A stretch of DNA of 64,000 nt from positions 1 through 64,000 of IMG/VR virus record IMGVR_UViG_3300042881_003464, one strand, 5' to 3'. Under the pieces are notes generated by a model. That model searched no databases, was not told where the DNA came from, and worked only from the letters and a program-made list of their open reading frames with translations. The stretch comes from a virus. Shown one piece after another: positions 23,431-31,453 of this stretch; positions within the stretch are counted from its first letter, which is position 1, and each line of letters starts with the position of its first letter. The translations under genes were made by a program, and so were the position numbers.

Positions 23431-24345
23431 TTATTTCCAAATCTCGAATTGAATGTTTAGGCTAGTGTTTGAAGCTGCCCAATAAAATGTAGATTGCCAC
23501 CACTCGTAAGCACTATTGTTTTGATTATTCGTAACCAATAATCTAAATCTTGTGCTGTCATAAGGCACTACCATGATTTGATTGTTCCAATGACCAGGCT
23601 GCACAATACCCCCAACAGTGGGAATATGATGTTGACACATACCATGGACATCGCCTGTCCAGGCATTGACACCATTATACAGAGGATTATAGGTGGTGTT
23701 GAATACTACACCTGTGGGTAAAGATAACAGGTAGGCCCCTGAACCTTGATTCCCGCCTTGAAAACCTAGTTTGTAAGTTAAACGTAGTTTATCTCCAACT
23801 GTCTGCGATTCAATGCGCTGTACAGTTCTTGTGCCTGTGGTAGGGGCGGTAACCGTTGCTCCAAGAGTAATAGTGTTTTGTACTGTGGTATTACTGATGC
23901 CTAATCCCGCTGGTCCAGTATCACCTTTTGGTCCTTGCGGCCCTGGTGCACCAATATCACCGGTGTCGCCTTTTGGTCCTTGTGGTCCAATTGCCCCAGT
24001 ATCACCCTTAGGTCCCTGTGGTCCTTGGATGCCTTGCGGTCCAGTGGAACCAGTGTCACCTTTTGGTCCTGGTGGTCCAGCATCACCTTTAGTGCCAGCT
24101 ATGTTATTTTCTGAAAATGTTAAATTGTTGCCATTAAATGCTGTGGTTTGTTCTGTGCCATCAGGAAAAATTAGAGTTCCATTGTTTTGAAATCTCCAGG
24201 TTTTATTAGATTCATCATTGGAATTAACAACAATATCAACATTACCTGATGATTTTAAGGCTGCATGATTGGTAGTAATCTCCATGCGATTATGGATATC
24301 ATTGGTACTTGGACCCATAATAGATCTACCTGCATTGAAAGCCAT
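23431..24345 (-). CDS. Collagen triple-helix-containing fibre protein
   Basis: About 20 G-X-Y triplets (GPQGPKGDT units) between N- and C-terminal globular domains. Confidence 0.8.
23905..24096 (-). repeat. Collagen-like (G-X-Y)n coding repeat
   Basis: Recurrent [10 protein letters not shown] units. Confidence 0.85.
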
Positions 24346-24346
24346 A

Positions 24347-25975
24347 TTATGTCATTTCCTGCCATTCAATGCTGGCGTAAATGTCTTGATTCTGTCCGGT
24401 AGTGGCCATGGTGATCACATACTCATAGGGTACGCCAGTGAATGGTTCACGTTCCAACTGATAGACAAATGAGAACTGTTCTTGTGTTGGAGCACTAGCA
24501 CTTTGATTGGTGCTGTTGATAAAACTCTGTTCCACAATGTCGCCTGACACCAAGGCTGTGGGAGCTAGGTTGTATTGTACTGCACTGTCAGCGGCTGAAT
24601 CAACCCAAGTACCACCAGACGTAATGGCATATTTGTAAACTCTAAACTGGAAAAAGCTCTGAGCCAAAGGTACAATACTGTAGTTAATGGGCACAACCAC
24701 CGCGTCCAACATAGTGGGTTTGAGTCTAATGGCTATCACAGGTACAAAACTCACATCATTGGGCAATCGTCGAGGAGTTCCTATCAAGTGTGAAGCAGCT
24801 CGCGGATTGCCCAACAACTGATAACCACCTTCTGAAATCACACTGGAGCAGATTTGCCGCAGGCTACTGGGCGATGCCGTAGTGCCAGTGTTGGTGATTT
24901 CCAAACGCAAAGGCAGCGTGGCTGTGGTGGTATAGGTTGTGGTGTTATTGACGAATGCTGTACTAGGCACGTTGGCATGATGGAAATGATGACATTCAAC
25001 GTAGTTGCCATCGATGATAAATCCTACCCGCACCGTTCCCACACCTAACCATTCAATGTCACAGAACCAGATCTGGTCTAGGGCTGTATTAAGTTCAATA
25101 CCACTTGGATTACTTGCGCCACCTAATCCAGACAATGTATCTACGTTCCAGTTAGCCTGTAGTACTCTATCTTCCACAATGGCACCCGAACTGTAGCTAC
25201 GGATCACCATGTAAAGATCAGTACCGGTGACTTCAAAGTATATGCCATTCTGAGCACCAAAATAACCCACACGCTGGCGCAGATTGACTTTGGCTTCATT
25301 CATACAGAATGACTGATAGATCAGCAGACTCTTGCCAGGTTGATAGGTAAAAGTTCTAACAGTTTCTCTAAGCACTTGGTCGCCAGATGCTGTGCCCACT
25401 GAACACAAAAATGAACTGGAGTTGGCATTGTAGACCACATTGGCAGTGGCACCAGTAATAGATGAACTGAACTGTTCATGATCATAATATCTAGCCTGTG
25501 TATCAAATATAGTAACAGGATTGCTGACACGCAAGCGGCCAAACGCATCTTTGAGTCCATCACCAAATGAACTTATGGCAACATTACCACCGGTGACATT
25601 GGCATTGACTGTGCCATCAACAGTGATTGATCCACCACCATCAACAACTGTGACGTTGCCGGTAATACCAGCTAGGTTGCCGTTTATTCCCACATTGCCA
25701 GATGTGATAGCTACGTTGGTATTGCCAGTAATGACCCATGGACTGGTGCCTTGGTACACAGTTACATTACCTGAACTTACTGTGACCGGCAGTGTGTTGC
25801 CTGAAATATCAACGTTGCCAAGACTACCAATAGCAACATTGCCCACTGACACGTTGCCAATAATAGCAGCATTGGTACGCACAAACACCTGGCCTGTGGC
25901 TGCATTAAGCTCCAGTGCCTGCGTGATGTTACGCAGGTACCACGGTGCTACTTCACTTGGATTTGGCTCAGCCAT
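24347..25975 (-). CDS. Putative virion structural protein (beta-rich)
   Basis: [36 protein letters not shown]; Asn/Val/Gly-rich N-terminus. Confidence 0.6.
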
Positions 25976-26361
25976 TATCGTGGATATCCTTTAAAACCTT
26001 TTACCACACTTTTGTTGTTGACAAAATTAGGTTCTTGGCTCTCTGGTGAGCTCACCACTTTTTTACCACCAGGCGTATTGGTCATTTGCAAAGCTTTATC
26101 GATTATTTTTCCAATACCACCGTTCATGCCCACTACCACTGCATTTTTACCAAATGCTGCTTCTGCACTCCACTCCGGTTTGTAAGGATTTACGTCATCT
26201 GGTTTGGCATCTGATCGAGCTCTGGCCACTGCCACACCCATTCTGTAGGTTTGATAAGGATCGCTGCTTTTTAATCCTGGAAGATTATACGCATATCTCA
26301 TGGGTTCGGCTGATTCAGGGGGCAGTTCCCGCTGCTCACGTATGAACTCACGAGCTCTCAT
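25975..26361 (-). CDS. Putative head-internal protein, paralog A
   Basis: MRAREFIRE N-terminus resembling a T4 capsid-targeting sequence; ends FKGYPR. Confidence 0.55.
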   Translation of the reverse strand: MRAREFIREQRELPPESAEPMRYAYNLPGLKSSDPYQTYRMGVAVARARSDAKPDDVNPYKPEWSAEAAFGKNAVVVGMNGGIGKIIDKALQMTNTPGGKKVVSSPESQEPNFVNNKSVVKGFKGYPR

Positions 26362-26729
26362 CTTGGATAACCTTTAAAAGCCCGGATAGGACTTTGTTTG
26401 TCGGTACTAGGAGGCTCCTCGGAGTCCATGTCACCGTTGTTGAGATCGTGCCAATCAGCACCGGCTGCTTTGTAGGCCATCTTCAACATGTCTTGTTCTT
26501 CTTTGGTATAGGGATGTGCGGTTTTGTGTTTGCCTACCCAACTGAGTTTGTTAAGCTCAGGCACAAAAGTTCCATCTGTAGAAGCCAAGGCCATCATCAC
26601 ACGATTGAGTGTGTAATCGCTGTTCCACTTATCGCCGTCACTGAAAATGTTCAATCCGCGGGTGGGGAATCGTTTGCCTTTGCTGAGTTTGGCATTTGTT
26701 GCTTCTTTGATGAATTCTTTGGCTCGCAT
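26358..26729 (-). CDS. Putative head-internal protein, paralog B
   Basis: MRAKEFIKE N-terminus; ends FKGYPR; ATGA coupling. Confidence 0.55.
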   Translation of the reverse strand: MRAKEFIKEATNAKLSKGKRFPTRGLNIFSDGDKWNSDYTLNRVMMALASTDGTFVPELNKLSWVGKHKTAHPYTKEEQDMLKMAYKAAGADWHDLNNGDMDSEEPPSTDKQSPIRAFKGYPR

Positions 26730-27050: not shown

Positions 27051-28565
27051 TTACCACTTACGGCAACTCCAATAGCGTGCTTTGGTTTTTGGTCCCGGAT
27101 TCTCGCAGCGATGGCGTGCTCTAAAACTGCGACGACGTGCAGGATTTGATTTTTTGATACGCATGGTTTTGTCGCCAAAGTTTACTTTTTTCACATTGCC
27201 TGTTGTGGGATCTTTGACATATACCTTGAACTTTTTAACATCGCCTGCTGTAGGCTTGTTGAGTTGAACTTCGCGTCCTTGATATTTCGCTTCATCCATA
27301 TCAACTTCTTCAAGCTCTCTAGCTAGATTTGATTCAATGTAGTCTGCTGCTGTGTCTACATAATCAGCTGCTTTGTTGATCTTGGATTGTACCCACTCTG
27401 GCATGTTTTCGTTGTCATCTAACATACCTGTGAGTCTGCGAGCAGCTCTTACTATGGTCTGCAGATCGTCTTTGGCCATGTCGCCTTCATAATCATACTC
27501 ACCTTGATCTGCTATGTTTGGTTCTTCACAATCACAGTTTTCTGCCATGTCAGAGATACCAGACAGTTTACGAATGCGATTCATTTCTTCAAGATCTTCG
27601 TTGCTCTTGTTGCCCCAGTTCTTGGCGCCTTTTTTGCGGCATTGTACCAAGGCACCTGATGCGTAGGCCGACGGCCATACTTTGTAGCGACTGCGTACCT
27701 TGTGATAGCAAGCATCTTGTTTTTCAGCTAAGGCCTCGTCCTCGTACATAGGACCTCCGCAGTGGGGACAGGCTTGTTCACTAACAGGCACACAGTTTGG
27801 CACCATGCGGTCGCCTTTTTTCTTCATGCCTTGTTGTTCATAGCCATCCCAGCAGCGTTCGTCTAGTTGTTCTTCGTTGGTTTTCTTTGTGGCTACATTG
27901 ATAGCCTTGCCACTGCGTTCTGGATTAGGATCTTCTCTGCGTTTGCGGCTAGCGGCCGACGCACGGCCTTTTTTACCCAGTGCATGTGCCTTGGCCTGTG
28001 GCAAACACTTAGGCTTGCCTTCTGAATCATCACCACGAGCACAGTCGCCACGTATCTTACCGTCTGGACCAAAACGCACCCATTTTTGTTTGAACCAATT
28101 GCGTAGATTTTCTTCCATAGTACGTGGCACAATGTATCCCTGGTTTCTTCCCAGATGAAATTCGCCTACGATATCTCCGTCCCAGGTCTGTGCTACCACA
28201 TGCACTTGATTTTTTCCTAGGTGAGTATCTGCGCCCATGCTTTTGACTTGATCCAGCCAGCTGTCATAATCTGTTACTAGCTTTTTTGCCGGCGCAACTT
28301 CTGCTACTTCTTCTTCGGTGTCGTAGTCATATTGATCAACTTCAGTGCCATCAACATCAATCATTTTGTCTTCAAAGGCACCAATAGCCTCCAGCAACTC
28401 CAACACAGTGTCGTCGGCTAGCAGAGTAATACTATCGTGATCATGCTCAATGATTTCGCTTTCTAACAGTACCTCTTCACGCAGATTGAACGCAAACAAA
28501 TCGCCCGTTACCGGACGATTTTGTACTTGTTGTTGCTGTTCAAAGTAATCACGCAGTTTTTTCAT
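27051..28565 (-). CDS. Modular protein of basic/Cys mini-domains with acidic linkers (putative head-internal polyprotein)
   Basis: Likely start MKKLRDYFE at 28565; alternating acidic linkers ending in E and basic modules. Confidence 0.6.
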   Translation of the reverse strand: MKKLRDYFEQQQQVQNRPVTGDLFAFNLREEVLLESEIIEHDHDSITLLADDTVLELLEAIGAFEDKMIDVDGTEVDQYDYDTEEEVAEVAPAKKLVTDYDSWLDQVKSMGADTHLGKNQVHVVAQTWDGDIVGEFHLGRNQGYIVPRTMEENLRNWFKQKWVRFGPDGKIRGDCARGDDSEGKPKCLPQAKAHALGKKGRASAASRKRREDPNPERSGKAINVATKKTNEEQLDERCWDGYEQQGMKKKGDRMVPNCVPVSEQACPHCGGPMYEDEALAEKQDACYHKVRSRYKVWPSAYASGALVQCRKKGAKNWGNKSNEDLEEMNRIRKLSGISDMAENCDCEEPNIADQGEYDYEGDMAKDDLQTIVRAARRLTGMLDDNENMPEWVQSKINKAADYVDTAADYIESNLARELEEVDMDEAKYQGREVQLNKPTAGDVKKFKVYVKDPTTGNVKKVNFGDKTMRIKKSNPARRRSFRARHRCENPGPKTKARYWSCRKW

Positions 28566-28567
28566 CT

Positions 28568-30829
28568 TTAGCCTTGATACTTTTTCCAAAGTTGTTGTTC
28601 CAACATACCCTGACGCTTGGGATCAACATTGATCACAGGCACAGTGGTTTGACCAGTGCTCTTGGGCTTGTTGAGTCCACCTGCCAATCCTTTTGTAATA
28701 ACTTCGGTGTCAGCAGTGACTTCATCAGGACTGTTGGCCAAATCTTCTTCCACATGATCACATGCACAGGGATTCTGTCCACAGTGTGGGCATGTTTCAC
28801 CGTGATCGCCTAGTCCTGCCATTTTCAAAAGCATCAACAGTTGTTCTGCATCTTGATCCGTGGCACTGATACTAAGTGTTTTGCTAGGTCCGCCCTGGCT
28901 GTCAGTATTCATGCTGGTGCTGATCTGCATGCTTTCTGCGATCATGCCCTCTAGTTCGCGATTGAAACTGTCATAAATTCCTTTGCCAAACTGCATACCA
29001 CCTGAACTCTTGGGTGTGCTGTCCTTCTTGGCTGGTGATTTGTTTTCTTCAGTGGCTTTTTCTCTGACGCCCATGGGTGCCATTACTGGTGCAACGCCGC
29101 CTGATGTGGTCATTTCATCAGTTTTCTTTTTCTTTTCAGGCAAGCCCTTGTGTTTGGTTTTAGCAAAGTCTTTTGTGTCACCTTTTTTCATTGTGCTAGC
29201 AACTTTTTTCAGTTCCTTGCTGGCGCCGGGAATCTTCTCGCCTTTTTGCATTGCATGAGCCATGCCCATGAAACGCTGTTGTGCTTTGCTTACTGCTTTT
29301 TCTCCAAGCTCTTCTTCGCCTACTTTCTTCTTGGTGTAAGCAGTGCGATCTGCTTTACGACTCTTGGCTGTCACACGTTCTTGACGTGGCTTGTCCGCGG
29401 TGTATTTCTTTGGACGTCCACGACCACGCTTTTCACCTGCGGCTGGTTGCGCACGTTTTTTCTTTTCGTTACCCCACTCATCGTAGTCGTCATCGTTGCC
29501 GCTGTCGTCACGATCACTGCGATGGCCATACTTCTTATGAATATTACGATCGCTTTCTGGATCACTGTGTTTCACAGTTTTAGCAGCGTCTTTTTGCGCG
29601 GCCTTGATCAAATTAAGATCAAGCTCATTGACTTTTTCCATGTCACCGTCGCCGTCTAGGTCAGCTTTCTTTAGACCAGCAGCACGAGCCTTGGCAAGAT
29701 TGCCAGTAAACAAATTACCTTCGTCTACGCCTAGTTCATCTTCCAGCTTGCTCATGATCCACTCATATGGATCACCTGTGCGTGCCTTGGCAATACCATA
29801 GGGCATTTCGTCACGATAGTGATCGTATAGTGCGCTGTACAGCTCATCAGTTAGTTCTCCGCTGCGCTTGAATTGTTCAATGTCACGACTCATGCTACGC
29901 ATGATATTATCAAGACCTTCGCTCATTTGTCCTAGACGTCGCTTGGCTTTTTCAAGTCCCGCACGTCCAGTAGGACTTCGGCTGGCTTCGTCATCAAGAT
30001 CTTTTGTGCTGACTTTCCAATCACCACCTTTGGCCTTGCGTTGAAACGCAGGTACTTTGCTCTTGGCAGGTGAATCCTTGTATTCGCCTTCCGCCATACC
30101 TTTATCTCTTTTAAGTGCTGCTGGTGTTGCACTAGTATCATAGTCCCAGCTTGACCGTTGTCCGGATTTATCAAGATCTCTGGCACCTTTGCTTACTGCT
30201 TGACTATACCCAGAGGCACGTTTATCTGCCAGACGCCCAAATTTTCCTTCAGGATCTGCTCTTCGATTTCCTTGAGCTGCTGCCATGGCTCTACCGCCAG
30301 CCCAATTGCGTTGCCCTTTAGCCTTGTCTGCATAACTTGTTAAGGTATCTGGACTTAGTTCGTTAACTTGTTCTTTTTTATGTTTTTTTGCGTCTTGTGC
30401 GGCTTTTTTCATTGACTCTTTTTTGTTGCCATCTTTGTCAAGATCAATGTAATCTGGCTTTGCGGCTTCCTTCATGTTCTTCTTGACGTCTTTGGCAGCT
30501 GACTTCATGGGCTCTTTCTTGTTGCCATCTTTGTCAAGGTCAAGGAAGTCAGGCTTGCTTTCATCCATCTTGTCATGCTTTGCACGAATCTGCGCCATCT
30601 TCTCTTTACTGGCACCTTCGCGGCCGGCTTTTTGTAATGCTGCCATGCCTTTTTCGCCATATTTCTTTTTACCAAGGTATGCTTGTAGACCACTTTCTTC
30701 TACGGCCTCATCAATGCGAGACTGGAGTCCGTTGAGTTTTTCAACTTGATCAGCTGCGGTCTGTGTCGCTTCACTGGACTCCAGTGCGCGGAATTTATTA
30801 AGGATGTCATAGATGTCGTGTTGGTTCAT
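28568..30829 (-). CDS. Large Lys/Glu-rich modular protein (putative head-internal/core protein) with DxDxDG repeats and an AT-hook
   Basis: DLDKDGN x2, DLDGDGD, KRGRGRPKK, AVSKAQQRFMGM, CPHC..C.C. Confidence 0.6.
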   Translation of the reverse strand: MNQHDIYDILNKFRALESSEATQTAADQVEKLNGLQSRIDEAVEESGLQAYLGKKKYGEKGMAALQKAGREGASKEKMAQIRAKHDKMDESKPDFLDLDKDGNKKEPMKSAAKDVKKNMKEAAKPDYIDLDKDGNKKESMKKAAQDAKKHKKEQVNELSPDTLTSYADKAKGQRNWAGGRAMAAAQGNRRADPEGKFGRLADKRASGYSQAVSKGARDLDKSGQRSSWDYDTSATPAALKRDKGMAEGEYKDSPAKSKVPAFQRKAKGGDWKVSTKDLDDEASRSPTGRAGLEKAKRRLGQMSEGLDNIMRSMSRDIEQFKRSGELTDELYSALYDHYRDEMPYGIAKARTGDPYEWIMSKLEDELGVDEGNLFTGNLAKARAAGLKKADLDGDGDMEKVNELDLNLIKAAQKDAAKTVKHSDPESDRNIHKKYGHRSDRDDSGNDDDYDEWGNEKKKRAQPAAGEKRGRGRPKKYTADKPRQERVTAKSRKADRTAYTKKKVGEEELGEKAVSKAQQRFMGMAHAMQKGEKIPGASKELKKVASTMKKGDTKDFAKTKHKGLPEKKKKTDEMTTSGGVAPVMAPMGVREKATEENKSPAKKDSTPKSSGGMQFGKGIYDSFNRELEGMIAESMQISTSMNTDSQGGPSKTLSISATDQDAEQLLMLLKMAGLGDHGETCPHCGQNPCACDHVEEDLANSPDEVTADTEVITKGLAGGLNKPKSTGQTTVPVINVDPKRQGMLEQQLWKKYQG

Positions 30830-30832
30830 GTG

Positions 30833-31429
30833 TTATCTCGCATTAGATTTTACTGATGGTAACTTGTTGGTGCCAGTAATAGCACTTTTGTTGCCCATGG
30901 GCAGATCATTGGTTGTTTCAGCAGGAGGTGTTTTACCACCGGCCACTGAAAACTTGCTCCGGTATGAGTTTTTTAGCACCTCATGATCGTGTGGGTCAGC
31001 TGCATAGTCCTTGCTGAGAGCCTTTTGTTCACGACTGGGTGCTGGGTAATCGGTATTGGTCAATAGACCATCGTTGTTGTCAATTGCTTCGTATTCTTGA
31101 CCCATGCTTTGAGTGTAATCTTCGGTATGCATCACTATACGATTGGGATCAAGGCCTGTGAGTTGTGCCAATTGTTTGATCTGTGGCTCAATGGCAGGAT
31201 AGCGAAACTCCACATCCACAAAACTCACTCGCTCATTTTTGAATTCAGGAAAATCAGTGGGCAGCGGTAGCACTGGTGTGCTCTTAGCGTCGCTCATTTT
31301 CACAACTTCAAACTGCGAGAGTTTGTTTTTTAGATCTTGAAAAAAACCAGGGGGTGTTTCACCGCACACTTTGATGCGGTAGTTGTAGGTTTTTTCGCTT
31401 TCTATTAGATATTCTTTGAAATGTCTCAT
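30833..31429 (-). CDS. Hypothetical late protein
   Basis: MRHFKEYLIE N-terminus (capsid-targeting-like); late promoter and AGGA SD upstream. Confidence 0.65.
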   Translation of the reverse strand: MRHFKEYLIESEKTYNYRIKVCGETPPGFFQDLKNKLSQFEVVKMSDAKSTPVLPLPTDFPEFKNERVSFVDVEFRYPAIEPQIKQLAQLTGLDPNRIVMHTEDYTQSMGQEYEAIDNNDGLLTNTDYPAPSREQKALSKDYAADPHDHEVLKNSYRSKFSVAGGKTPPAETTNDLPMGNKSAITGTNKLPSVKSNAR

Positions 31430-31447
31430 GTCATGATCCTATAACAG

Positions 31448-31453
31448 TATTTA
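31448..31453 (-). promoter_or_regulatory. Late promoter core TAAATA
   Basis: Its TAA is the upstream stop codon; followed by an SD. Confidence 0.65.

What the first reader, a model, noticed from the sequence alone, without database searches (positions are those of the whole stretch)
27051..28565. Putative capsid-packaged polyprotein of small basic/Cys mini-domains released by the prohead protease
Seen: the protein is a string of compact, strongly basic modules, several with Cys pairs (NLRNWFKQKW...KPKCLP...; RCWDGY...MVPNCVP; KQDACYHKV...YKVWPSAYASG..VQCRKK; AKYQGREVQL...RRRSFRARHRC...RYWSCRKW), plus an acidic helical module (EGDMAK...PEWVQSKI). Each begins right after an acidic linker ending in Glu (TMEE, QLDE, ALAE, DMDE). 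Established: T4 gp21 cleaves head proteins after Glu in hydrophobic-X-E sites, and T4 internal proteins are injected with the DNA (IPI* inhibits the GmrSD restriction enzyme). Inference: one gene encodes a cassette of several mature mini-proteins (DNA condensing or anti-defence) that are packaged, cut apart and delivered on infection.
Basis: partly seen in the sequence, partly recalled or inferred. Interest (0 to 1): 0.8.

Follow-up and report, generated by a model that had tools for sequence, protein, structure and literature searches.

The report
Protease-punctuated capsid cargo polyprotein
A marine T4-like phage gene encodes a chain of small independent protein modules, each preceded by the sequence that the phage's head-maturation protease cuts, so it is probably loaded into the capsid and cut into several small basic proteins; this would extend T4's one-gene-one-internal-protein scheme to shuffled cassettes.

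Summary
Window 27054-28565 (minus strand) encodes a 504-aa protein. It has an acidic N region, basic Cys-pair modules A, B(+CxxC), C and D, and an acidic helical module H.

More than 8000 homologues carry the same modules in at least 27 orders, including all six permutations of A, B and C. The basic modules therefore move as independent units.

Every A, B, C and D copy is directly preceded by [LIVM]-x-Glu (96-99% of unique junctions; background 3.4%). This holds whatever lies upstream, and synonymous codons vary freely there. The motif is absent inside A and D and enriched in the N region. Family N-termini (MKSLREYIAE) nearly copy T4's capsid targeting sequence (MKTYQEFIAE).

The genome's only three ORFs with strict CTS-like starts flank this gene, and a T4-type gp21 protease is encoded. 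Homologues were detected in purified S-SM1 and S-CREM2 virions. Module D stands alone in non-T4 viruses and starts exactly at the predicted cut.

Cleavage, ejection and function are inferred, not shown. Module folds have no solved relatives.

The scan flagged the same phenomenon on other genomes. I found no paper on it in the library searched. Verdict: new variant of the T4 internal-protein system.

The parts
27054..28565 (-). CDS of the 504-aa modular protein (stop codon at 27051-27053). It belongs to the cyanophage cluster T4-GC119 'structural protein'.
   Evidence: A, B and C match S-SM1 SSM1_115 (annotated T4-LIKE GC: 119 in its record) and S-P4 GC0119.
28536..28565 (-). CTS-like N-terminal leader MKKLRDYFEQ (aa 1-10). 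The family consensus is MKSLREYIAE and T4 IPII/IPIII have MKTYQEFIAE.
   Evidence: The targeting positions 4 and 7 (L, Y) are kept. Position 10 is Gln here and Glu is at position 9.
28110..28565 (-). Acidic N region (aa 1-152, pI 4.25). It has a conserved beta/alpha core at about aa 10-65, rich in [LI]xE sites, and is a probable targeting/pro-domain. It ends in TMEE152.
   Evidence: [LI]xE 177 observed against 89 expected in N cores.
27858..28109 (-). Module A (aa 153-236): NLRNWFKQKWVRFGPDGKIRGDC...KPKCLP plus a basic tail. 9.4 kDa, pI 10.0, 2 Cys. Predicted N-terminus Asn153 after MEE152.
   Evidence: phrog_23735 (81-aa profile) E 1.6e-12. Junction motif in 103/106 and 64/64 contexts. No internal [LI]xE.
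27774..27857 (-). Module B (aa 237-264): RCWDGY...VPNCVP beta-hairpin with 2 Cys. Predicted N-terminus Arg237 after LDE236.
   Evidence: pLDDT 88-89. Junction motif in 68/71 and 43/47 contexts. Duplicated in some homologues.
27723..27773 (-). CxxC element (aa 265-281, ACPHCGGPMYEDEALAE). It usually precedes module C and ends in LAE281.
   Evidence: The Z-to-C junction carries the motif in 34/34 contexts.
27576..27722 (-). Module C (aa 282-330): KQDACYHKV..KVWPSAYASGALVQCRKKG. Basic, 2 Cys, DUF5872-like.
   Evidence: Pfam DUF5872 E 3.9e-4, 21.4 bits, below the cut-off of 27.5. phrog_727/38880. Junction motif in 91/95 and 54/54 contexts.
27492..27575 (-). Acidic linker L (aa 331-358) containing NCDC. 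Predicted disordered.
   Evidence: pLDDT below 50 at aa 338-357.
27291..27491 (-). Module H (aa 359-425): acidic helical hairpin EGDMAKDDL...PEWVQSKI, pI 4.1. Always preceded by GEYD and usually followed by D. Ends in DMDE425.
   Evidence: pLDDT 86-92. phrog_32745..
27054..27290 (-). Module D (aa 426-504): AKYQGREVQLNKP...RRRSFRARHRC...RYWSCRKW. 9.3 kDa, pI 10.9. An independent beta+alpha domain, distantly DUF5754/Tlr6f-like.
   Evidence: AF2 alone gives pLDDT 85.4 and pTM 0.71. 3844 representative clusters, C-terminal in 139/143, P1 Glu in 143/143. Stand-alone forms start M|A.Y.G.
30833..31429 (-). Upstream 198-aa gene with the CTS-like start MRHFKEYLIE|S. First gene of the packed late block.
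   Evidence: One of only three strict CTS matches in the 171.8-kb genome. Orthologues lie next to N-H-D genes in related contigs.
28568..30829 (-). Adjacent 753-aa gene, also a string of short modules (DUF3008-like unit, two DxDxDG repeats) with 16 [LIVMF]xE sites.
25975..26729 (-). Two downstream paralogous genes (123 and 128 aa) that start MRAKEFIKE / MRAREFIRE and end in FKGYPR.
   Evidence: conserved next to N-H-D genes in IMG/VR contigs.
31448..31453 (-). TAAATA (context AATAAATAC), a T4-late-promoter-like motif 19 nt upstream of the 198-aa gene. The genes from 31429 down to 24347 are tightly packed on one strand.
   Evidence: This is a motif match only. The exact TATAAATA is not present here.

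Best explanation
The gene encodes a capsid-internal cargo polyprotein of a marine T4-like myovirus.

Shown:
- The protein is a mosaic of small modules (N, A, B, CxxC-C, H, D), and the basic ones recombine freely among thousands of phage proteins.
- Every A, B, C and D copy is immediately preceded by hydrophobic-x-Glu. This is conserved at the amino-acid level and not at the DNA level.
- The family's N-terminus closely matches the T4 capsid targeting sequence.
- The genome encodes a T4-type prohead protease.
- Homologues are present in purified virions of two cultured cyanophages.

Inferred mechanism:
1. During late infection the protein is co-assembled into the prohead core through its N-terminal leader and acidic N domain.
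2. The gp21 homologue then cuts after Glu152, Glu236, Glu281 and Glu425, and at several sites inside the N region.
3. This releases mini-proteins of about 5-10 kDa: A (pI 10), B, C(+H) and D (pI 10.9). The acidic pro-region is degraded.
4. The basic products stay with the packaged DNA and leave the capsid with it, as T4 IPI-III do.

Function (weakest step): D is strongly conserved (about 80-90% identity across different host proteins) and also occurs in podoviruses, siphoviruses and archaeal spindle viruses. I therefore favour generic DNA binding, charge neutralisation or protection over a fast-evolving anti-defence inhibitor.
For: Modularity:
- 27 architectures, including all six A/B/C permutations.
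- Separate PHROG families hit separate segments.
- The full-length AF2 model has pTM 0.27 with low-confidence linkers at aa 145-152, 217-234 and 338-357. D alone has pTM 0.71.

Cleavage signature:
- [LIVMF]xE sits directly before A in 103/106, B in 68/71, C in 91/95 and D in 80/81 unique contexts, against a 3.4% background.
- It holds in a clear majority of unique junctions for 19 of 20 junction types, whatever the upstream element.
- It is reproduced in independent IMG/VR loci and in 143/143 representative clusters for P1 Glu.
- Junction codons vary freely: GAA/GAG matches background, and P3 uses all Leu codons plus Ile/Met/Val.
- Module cores lack the motif ([LI]xE: A 0 against 34 expected, D 0 against 7.9), while N cores are enriched, 177 against 89.
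- The gp21 specificity L/I-x-E is taken from PMC9026906. T4 gp23 reads FLTE65|A.

Natural experiment for D:
- D starts M|A.Y.G in a siphovirus, a podovirus, a roseophage and an archaeal spindle virus.
- It carries a leader plus [LM]xE in the T4-like phages HTVC008M, C48C1 and Melnitz and in the immuto myovirus.

Targeting:
- The family starts MKSLREYIAE, against T4 IPII/IPIII MKTYQEFIAE.
- The only three strict CTS-like ORFs in the genome flank the gene, and the same cluster recurs in related contigs.

Protease:
- A Peptidase_S77 gene is at genome position 71.7-72.3 kb, 35% identical to T4 gp21 with the His and Ser motifs.

Virion presence:
- S-SM1 GC119 gave 13 peptide counts.
- S-CREM2 ORF160 gave 7 unique peptides.
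- D is fused to an XkdF-type prohead protease in roseophage CRP-6.
Against: - There is no experimental N-terminus, gel band or ejection assay for this protein or any homologue. All cleavage evidence is comparative.
- The query's own leader has Gln at position 10 and Glu at position 9, and T4 work shows that positions 8 and 10 govern processing.
- S-SM1's virion-detected homologue has no CTS-like start.
- AF2 draws a low-confidence helix across LAE281|K, and the CxxC element plus C together have four Cys. That site could lie inside one folded unit.
- Homologue counts are not phylogenetically independent, and the shuffle controls ignore sequence conservation.
- H has no such site upstream.
- The specificity of this phage's protease is assumed from 35% identity to T4 gp21.
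Confidence: 0.62

Rival explanations
1. The protein is an uncleaved 'beads-on-a-string' virion or head-internal protein. The hydrophobic-x-Glu preceding each module would be a structural linker or cap feature that travels with the module. At most the N-terminal leader would be removed.
For: There is no direct cleavage data. AF2 puts a helix across LAE281|K. The motif always moves with the module, which is also what a module-intrinsic feature would do. The S-SM1 homologue lacks a CTS yet is found in virions.
Against: Four structurally unrelated modules share the same P3/P1 pattern with a free P2: the model starts A with a helix, B with a hairpin and D with a strand. Stand-alone D proteins in viruses without a T4-type protease omit these residues and start at P1'. 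The motif is depleted inside modules and enriched in the acidic N region.
Confidence: 0.2
2. The conserved junction is a DNA-level recombination site (micro-homology) that lets cassettes swap in frame. On this view the amino-acid motif is a by-product and has nothing to do with proteolysis.
For: An earlier follow-up in this scan (e1-5730568) reported a linker in another T4-like phage whose DNA is fixed even at silent positions. Modules are clearly exchanged at these borders.
Against: At the A, B, C and D junctions examined here, synonymous positions vary freely. P1 GAA:GAG is 52:12, 42:5, 48:6 and 39:6, against a background of about 82:18. P3 uses six Leu codons plus Ile/Met/Val, and P2 varies among D/E/N/A/T/L. 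Selection is therefore on residue properties.
Confidence: 0.05
3. The protein is cleaved in the prohead as proposed, but the products are specific anti-defence effectors (like T4 IPI*) rather than generic DNA-associated proteins. The shuffled cassettes would then reflect an arms race with host immunity.
For: T-even internal proteins are described as a diverse set of defence-countering proteins that share only the CTS (PMC3012670). There is extreme combinatorial diversity, including fusions with enzymes: cytidylyltransferase-like, pterin-4a dehydratase and HPPK fragments. This resembles the polyvalent proteins of PMC5512222.
Against: The individual modules are highly conserved: D is 80-90% identical across about 150 different 50%-identity clusters. 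D also occurs in unrelated virus types, including archaeal spindle viruses. That is unlike fast-evolving inhibitors. No module hit any PHROG or Pfam family with an assigned function at the thresholds used. The PADLOC library was not searched.
Confidence: 0.25
4. The protein is not a virion component in this phage. It would be a late intracellular nucleic-acid-binding or regulatory protein, and the virion detections of homologues would be carry-over.
For: Proteomic detections are for distant homologues only, at 7-13 peptides. No data exist for this uncultured phage.
Against: Two independent CsCl-purified virion proteomes detected homologues. The family has CTS-like N-termini. The gene sits in a block with virion structural genes and other CTS-like genes. 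D is fused to a prohead protease in CRP-6.
Confidence: 0.05

Closest known systems
[quoted passage not shown]
   Same: A 10-residue N-terminal leader of the same form: the family has MKSLREYIAE and T4 has MKTYQEFIAE. The predicted cuts follow hydrophobic-x-Glu. The products are small and basic (8-10 kDa). Several CTS-led genes are clustered. A gp21 homologue is encoded in the genome. The proteins are associated with virions.
   Different: There is no sequence similarity to the mature IP regions. In T4 each gene yields one mature protein after one N-terminal cut. Here one gene carries up to five or six unrelated modules, each with its own site, in freely permuted order. The modules are conserved rather than hypervariable. 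The query's own leader lacks Glu10.
Ejection / inner-body proteins of giant phages phiKZ, 201phi2-1 and SPN3US
   Same: These are head-internal proteins processed by a gp21-related prohead protease after small-x-Glu motifs. They have long propeptides with several cleavage sites that probably act in targeting (PMC5694885). The acidic 152-aa N region here could play that role.
   Different: In the giant phages the extra cuts lie within propeptides that are discarded, and one mature fragment remains. Here the sites separate several conserved folded modules that all look like products. The protease family (S80 against S77) and the motif (S/A/G-x-E against L/I/V/M-x-E) also differ.
Polyvalent proteins of phages and conjugative elements (Iyer, Burroughs, Anand, de Souza and Aravind 2017, PMC5512222)
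   Same: Many unrelated domains are joined in one polypeptide, with extensive mosaicism. They are proposed to be delivered with the DNA, and the authors draw an analogy to viral polyproteins.
   Different: None of the hallmark polyvalent domains or embedded peptidases were found. The modules here are mini-domains of 25-85 aa. Release would be by the trans-acting prohead protease at a uniform site. That paper does not mention cyanophages.
T4-GC119, cyanophage-only 'structural protein' cluster (Sullivan et al. 2010, PMC3037559)
   Same: This is the family the gene actually belongs to through modules A, B and C. The cluster is present in 15 of 16 cyanomyophages, gene length ranges from 276 to 2985 nt, and it was detected in S-SM1 virions.
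   Different: The paper treats it as a hypothetical or structural protein of a mobile cassette. Modularity, cleavage sites and the CTS are not discussed. The N-H-D part of the query is not found in cultured cyanophage isolates.
Pfam DUF5754 (Tlr6f, found in polinton-like viruses, giant viruses and phages) and DUF5872
   Same: D aligns to the whole 49-position DUF5754 profile and C aligns to DUF5872 positions 12-43. Both are function-unknown families of aquatic DNA viruses.
   Different: The scores are below Pfam's cut-offs (16.8 against 27.4, and 21.4 against 27.5). Some homologues pass for DUF5872 but none pass for DUF5754.
Adenovirus core-protein precursors pVII and pre-mu, cut by the viral protease inside the capsid (my own knowledge, not checked here)
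   Same: Basic DNA-associated peptides are generated by a packaged maturation protease within the particle.
   Different: This is an unrelated virus realm, protease and set of proteins. It is an analogy only.

Membership tests
T4-type CTS-targeted internal head proteins | N-terminal propeptide of about 10-19 residues resembling MKTYQEFIAE, with key residues at positions 4 and 7 | tested here: met
   The family consensus is MKSLREYIAE. The query has MKKLRDYFEQ with L4 and Y7 kept. The role of positions 4 and 7 is from PMC9026906.
T4-type CTS-targeted internal head proteins | L/I-x-E processing site ending the leader (Glu at position 10) | tested here: inconclusive
   Most family members have [IL]-x-E10. 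The query and its closest relatives have Y-F-E9 followed by Q, T or H. Further sites follow at LRE30, LLE35 and IIE40.
T4-type CTS-targeted internal head proteins | T4-type prohead protease (Peptidase_S77, gp21) encoded by the same phage | tested here: met
   PF03420 hit of 91.4 bits at G000:C1:71859-72299. It is 35% identical to T4 gp21, including the H and S motifs.
T4-type CTS-targeted internal head proteins | Present inside mature virions | not testable with these tools
   Only homologues have data: S-SM1 GC119 with 13 counts and S-CREM2 ORF160 with 7 unique peptides. The location within the virion was not resolved.
T4-type CTS-targeted internal head proteins | Demonstrated cleavage by the prohead protease and ejection with the DNA | not testable with these tools
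   This needs N-terminomics and infection assays. Here there are only the conserved junction motif and the convergent N-termini of stand-alone D.
T4-type CTS-targeted internal head proteins | Sequence homology of the mature part to IPI, IPII, IPIII or Alt | tested here: not met
   No PHROG, Pfam or NCBIfam hit to internal virion protein families. So the protein may work like an IP but is not a sequence member of those families.
Polyvalent proteins (Iyer et al. 2017) | Two to fifteen unrelated domains in one phage polypeptide, with mosaic architectures | tested here: met
   There are six or seven modules and 27 architectures among homologues.
Polyvalent proteins (Iyer et al. 2017) | Hallmark effector or enzymatic domains and often an embedded peptidase | tested here: not met
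   Pfam finds only two sub-threshold DUFs in the query. Some homologues carry CTP_transf_like, Pterin_4a or GP88, but none has a peptidase.
T4-GC119 cyanophage structural-protein cluster | Sequence similarity to the cluster's members (for example S-SM1 SSM1_115 and S-P4 GC0119) | tested here: met
   BLASTP of modules A, B and C against SSM1_115 and S-P4 gave E-values of 5e-15 to 3e-25. tblastn hit 392 phage records, mostly cyanomyophages.
Pfam DUF5872 | Score at or above the gathering threshold (27.5 bits) | tested here: inconclusive
   The query scores 21.4 bits. Homologue P0075 scores 32.6 bits over the same module.
Pfam DUF5754 (Tlr6f) | Score at or above the gathering threshold (27.4 bits) | tested here: inconclusive
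   The query scores 16.8 bits over profile positions 2-49 of 49. The best of 55 D-bearing proteins has E 0.0018. The Atlas neighbour cluster has DUF5754 on 16% of its members.

The most novel reading that the evidence does not exclude
Marine T4-like phages run a combinatorial 'cargo cassette' system. The prohead protease acts as a universal release enzyme for a library of ultra-conserved mini-proteins, encoded as freely permuted polyproteins. At least one of these, D (possibly Tlr6f-related), would be a virion DNA-associated protein shared across virus realms: tailed phages, archaeal spindle viruses, and perhaps polinton-like and giant viruses. Its free N-terminal Ala would be made either by Met removal (stand-alone genes) or by gp21 cleavage (polyproteins). 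This would point to a conserved and still unknown function in genome packaging or delivery.
Probability: 0.3. Interest if true: 0.85.

Novelty: new variant of a known kind. Interest (0 to 1): 0.72.

Why it matters
T4's capsid-targeting and processing system is a textbook mechanism, but it is known almost only from coliphages, where each gene yields one cargo protein. This gene family has more than 8000 members in metagenomes and is present in most cultured marine cyanomyophages.

- It would show that ocean T4-like phages package cocktails of mini-proteins made from shuffled polyproteins. That would explain a very abundant 'hypothetical structural protein' (T4-GC119).
- It gives exact, testable cleavage sites and product N-termini.
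- It provides natural tags and sites that could be used to load proteins into cyanophage capsids.
- It links a cross-realm virus protein of unknown function (the D module, possibly Tlr6f-like) to the capsid interior, which makes that protein's function experimentally approachable.

Tried and rejected
- Foldseek of the full-length model against PDB found nothing with E <= 0.001. The weak rows were Sm/Hfq/Tudor-like.
- VIA-align of the D model against 48,161 PDB representatives gave a best Z of 2.5. BFVD returned only uncharacterised phage proteins.
- A PDB sequence search gave no match. NCBIfam gave no hit.
- The first MAFFT alignment of mixed architectures (A1) misaligned the N module and was discarded.
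- An exact TATAAATA late promoter is not near the gene. Only the shorter TAAATA was found.
- tblastn of the 198-aa CTS neighbour against phage isolates gave no match.
- There are no paralogues of any module elsewhere in the 171.8-kb genome.
- DNA-level conservation of the junctions was tested and rejected for the A, B, C and D junctions.
- With F allowed at P3, module A seemed enriched in internal sites. This is the invariant WFKEKW helix, and it disappears with [LIVM] or [LI] at P3.
- Literature searches for a capsid targeting sequence in cyanophages, for prohead-protease polyproteins and for the DUF names found no paper describing this arrangement.
Full report
**1. What is there**

Window 27054-28565 on the minus strand (stop codon at 27051-27053) is a 504-aa ORF.

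The window is the first 64 kb of a 171.8-kb IMG/VR virus record. This is a T4-like myovirus. Its gp23 and gp21 lie at 69-72 kb. gp4-like, tail-fibre and 'virion structural protein' genes lie next to the target. The nearest DNA matches are Synechococcus myophages.

Genes from 31429 down to 24347 are tightly packed on one strand. A TAAATA late-promoter-like motif lies 19 nt upstream of the first of them. That is a motif match only.

**2. Anatomy**

PHROG profiles hit separate segments of the protein rather than the whole. Two of those profiles are only 81 and 96 positions long, so such modules also exist as small stand-alone proteins. From these hits and from alignments I divided the protein as follows:

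| Segment | Residues | Properties |
|---|---|---|
| N | 1-152 | acidic, pI 4.25 |
| A | 153-236 | 9.4 kDa, pI 10.0 |
| B | 237-264 | Cys pair |
| CxxC element | 265-281 | Cys pair |
| C | 282-330 | basic, pI 9.5 for 282-327 |
| linker L | 331-358 | acidic, contains NCDC |
| H | 359-425 | acidic helical hairpin, pI 4.1 |
| D | 426-504 | 9.3 kDa, pI 10.9 |

The 12 Cys fall as one pair per element. B with its CxxC tail is not basic in this copy. H is preceded by GEYD, not by hydrophobic-x-Glu.

**3. The modules are independent**

The protein has more than 8000 homologues in each of two length classes (the searches were capped), and none is collinear with it. Among 240 retrieved homologues there are 27 architectures:
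- N-H-D, 46 proteins
- B-A-C, 39
- A-C-B-D, 37
- A-B-C, 29
- B-B-C-A, A-C-A and others

All six permutations of A, B and C occur. The query looks like an A-B-C cassette inserted into an N-H-D protein.

Homologues also carry enzymes between modules: a cytidylyltransferase-like domain, pterin-4a dehydratase and GP88.

AlphaFold2 of the full protein gives pTM 0.27. There are confident islands at N 1-60, B 241-260 and H 361-410. The linkers at 145-152, 217-234 and 338-357 are below pLDDT 50. D alone folds with pLDDT 85.4 and pTM 0.71.

**4. The junction signature**

I anchored each module on its own conserved residues and read what lies upstream.

| Module | Unique contexts with [LIVMF]-x-E directly upstream | Independent IMG/VR DNA contexts |
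|---|---|---|
| A | 103/106 | 64/64 |
| B | 68/71 | 43/47 |
| C | 91/95 | 54/54 |
| D | 80/81 | 47/47 |

- The background rate is 3.4% per position in the same proteins.
- P1 is Glu, P3 is L/I/M/V, and P2 is free (D/E/N/A/T/L).
- The motif is present in a clear majority of unique junctions for 19 of 20 junction types. It does not matter whether the upstream element is a short N-terminal leader, another module or unrelated sequence.
- In 143 D instances from 146 different 50%-identity clusters, P1 is Glu in 143/143.
- Four structurally different module starts share the pattern (helix for A, hairpin for B, strand for D). This argues against a fold-intrinsic reason.
- The pattern equals the published gp21 specificity, L/I-x-E with the cut after Glu (PMC9026906). 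T4 gp23 reads FLTE65|A in the T4 record.

**5. Protein-level, not DNA-level conservation**

An earlier follow-up in this scan reported a DNA-fixed linker in another phage (e1-5730568). I tested that idea on the junctions found here.
- P1 codons are GAA:GAG 52:12, 42:5, 48:6 and 39:6, against a background of about 82:18.
- P3 uses all six Leu codons plus Ile, Met and Val.
- P1' Ala uses four codons.

Selection therefore acts on residue properties. A recombination micro-homology does not explain these junctions.

**6. Site avoidance and enrichment**

| Region | [LI]xE observed | Expected from shuffles |
|---|---|---|
| A cores (144 unique) | 0 | 34 |
| D cores (226 unique) | 0 | 7.9 |
| N cores | 177 | 89 |

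With [LIVM]xE the figures are 8 against 55 for A and 0 against 32 for D.

This is the pattern expected for protease-resistant products and a pro-region that is degraded. The caveat is that the sequences are related and the shuffles ignore conservation.

**7. A natural experiment for D**

| Virus | Type | How D begins |
|---|---|---|
| Kolga | siphovirus | M\|A.Y.G |
| HTVC111P | podovirus | M\|A.Y.G |
| CRP-901 | roseophage | M\|A.Y.G |
| Nitrosopumilaceae spindle-shaped virus | archaeal | M\|A.Y.G |
| HTVC008M | T4-like Kyanoviridae | leader, then ..PLEE\|AEF |
| C48C1 | T4-like Kyanoviridae | MKKFKQYIDE..ELTE\|AEY |
| Melnitz | T4-like Kyanoviridae | leader, then PMME\|SEY |
| immuto | 160-kb myovirus | leader, then ELDE\|GEY |

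In the first four viruses D is a stand-alone protein of 79-93 aa that starts exactly at the predicted P1' residue. Met removal before Ala would give the same N-terminus as the predicted cut. That last point is an inference from the known specificity of methionine aminopeptidase.

In roseophage CRP-6, a D-like domain is fused to an XkdF-type prohead protease (Peptidase_S78_2, E 7e-18). That places D inside procapsids in another lineage.

**8. Targeting**

T4 IPII and IPIII start MKTYQEFIAE|A. N-module proteins start MKSLREYIAE|SE, MKTLKDYLTE|AE and similar. A-first and B-first homologues start MRANEFVTE|NL and MRYQEILE|ACW.

In the whole genome only three ORFs match a strict CTS pattern. All three flank the target: 30833-31429 starts MRHFKEYLIE, 26358-26729 starts MRAKEFIKE and 25975-26361 starts MRAREFIRE. 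The same gene set accompanies N-H-D genes in related IMG/VR contigs, always on the same strand.

The query's own leader, MKKLRDYFEQ, keeps positions 4 and 7, which T4 genetics link to targeting. It has Gln at position 10, which T4 genetics link to processing. Further sites at LRE30, LLE35 and IIE40 follow.

**9. Protease and virion evidence**

- The phage's gp21 homologue is 35% identical to T4 gp21 and keeps the His and Ser motifs.
- Its gp23 has ILE34|N close to the position that aligns with the T4 cleavage site. This is an inference.
- T4-GC119 was detected in purified S-SM1 virions with 13 peptide counts (PMC3037559 Table S8). Its sequence is X-A-C-B-X, with VAE|, VLE|, IQE|, FQE| and LNE| near the module borders.
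- S-CREM2 ORF160 (X-A-B-C, with NLEE|KKNCW and EISE|GKKDACY) was detected with 7 unique peptides (PMC10665884 Table 3).

**10. Mechanism (shown against inferred)**

Shown:
- the mosaic of independent modules
- the conserved protein-level junction motif
- CTS-like leaders and their clustering
- the presence of a gp21 homologue
- virion association of homologues

Inferred:
1. [quoted passage not shown]
2. gp21 cuts after Glu152, 236, 281 and 425 and within N.
3. The basic products are retained with the DNA and ejected with it.

Function is unknown. D has no solved structural relative (best Z 2.5). Its PHROG and BFVD relatives are uncharacterised. It is at best a distant relative of DUF5754/Tlr6f (PMC12220804).

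The modules are strongly conserved and D spans very different viruses. I therefore favour generic DNA association over specific anti-defence, at roughly 45:25. Lysines of the T4 internal proteins contact DNA phosphates (PMC3012670).

**11. Comparison and novelty**

The gene works like the T4 CTS/internal-protein system. It is not a sequence member of the IP families. It is a member of cyanophage cluster T4-GC119.

It differs from T4 (one product per gene), from giant-phage ejection proteins (extra cuts only in discarded propeptides), and from polyvalent proteins (large effector domains and embedded peptidases).

No paper in the searchable library describes the arrangement. First readers and follow-ups of this scan noted the same phenomenon on other genomes.

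I class it as a new variant of a known kind.

Noticed in passing
window 28568-30829 (-): The adjacent 753-aa protein is built the same way. It has two tandem DFLDLDKDGNKKE units, each preceded by M-x-E, and a DUF3008-like unit preceded by LGE. It has 16 [LIVMF]xE sites in all. Its PHROG hits cover only short segments.
   Followed up: partly
window 25975-26361 (-) and 26358-26729 (-): Two small paralogues (128 and 123 aa) start MRAREFIRE / MRAKEFIKE and end in the shared C-terminal motif FKGYPR. They have no family hit. Orthologues sit beside N-H-D genes in many IMG/VR contigs (for example L013, L020, L034).
   Followed up: partly
window 30833-31429 (-): A 198-aa protein starts MRHFKEYLIESEKTYNYRIK. 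The start is conserved (MKHF[KR][ED]YL[IV]ESE[KR]TYNYRIK) in related contigs. There was no match in cultured phage isolates and no family hit.
   Followed up: partly
L088:835-1524 (Roseobacter phage CRP-6 gp55): A D-like domain is fused N-terminally to a Peptidase_S78_2 (XkdF) prohead protease. The module is therefore physically tied to the head-maturation protease in a non-T4 phage.
   Followed up: partly
own genome G000:C1:72369-73271 (-), outside the window: A 300-aa extremely acidic protein lies immediately upstream of gp21. It has repeated EKV(E/D)EAM units, each a [LIVM]xE site. It is probably a prohead core or scaffold component that is cut into small pieces.
   Followed up: no
homologues P0075-P0078, P0104, P0374: The modules are fused with enzyme domains: cytidylyltransferase-like plus B-B-C-A, pterin-4a carbinolamine dehydratase inside B-A-B-C, and an HPPK fragment plus D. 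Cytidylyltransferases are repeatedly detected in cyanophage virions (S-SM1 GC190; S-CREM2 ORF154). These enzymes may also be capsid cargo.
   Followed up: no
L005:1498-1749 (Nitrosopumilaceae spindle-shaped virus ORF8): Module D (about 54% identical) occurs as a stand-alone 83-aa protein in archaeal spindle-shaped viruses, which have no HK97-type capsid or prohead protease. This is an unexpectedly wide host and virus range for the module.
   Followed up: partly
window 23431-24345 (-): A 304-aa collagen-repeat (G-X-Y) tail-fibre-like protein lies directly downstream of the 542-aa 'virion structural protein' (phrog_1645).
   Followed up: no
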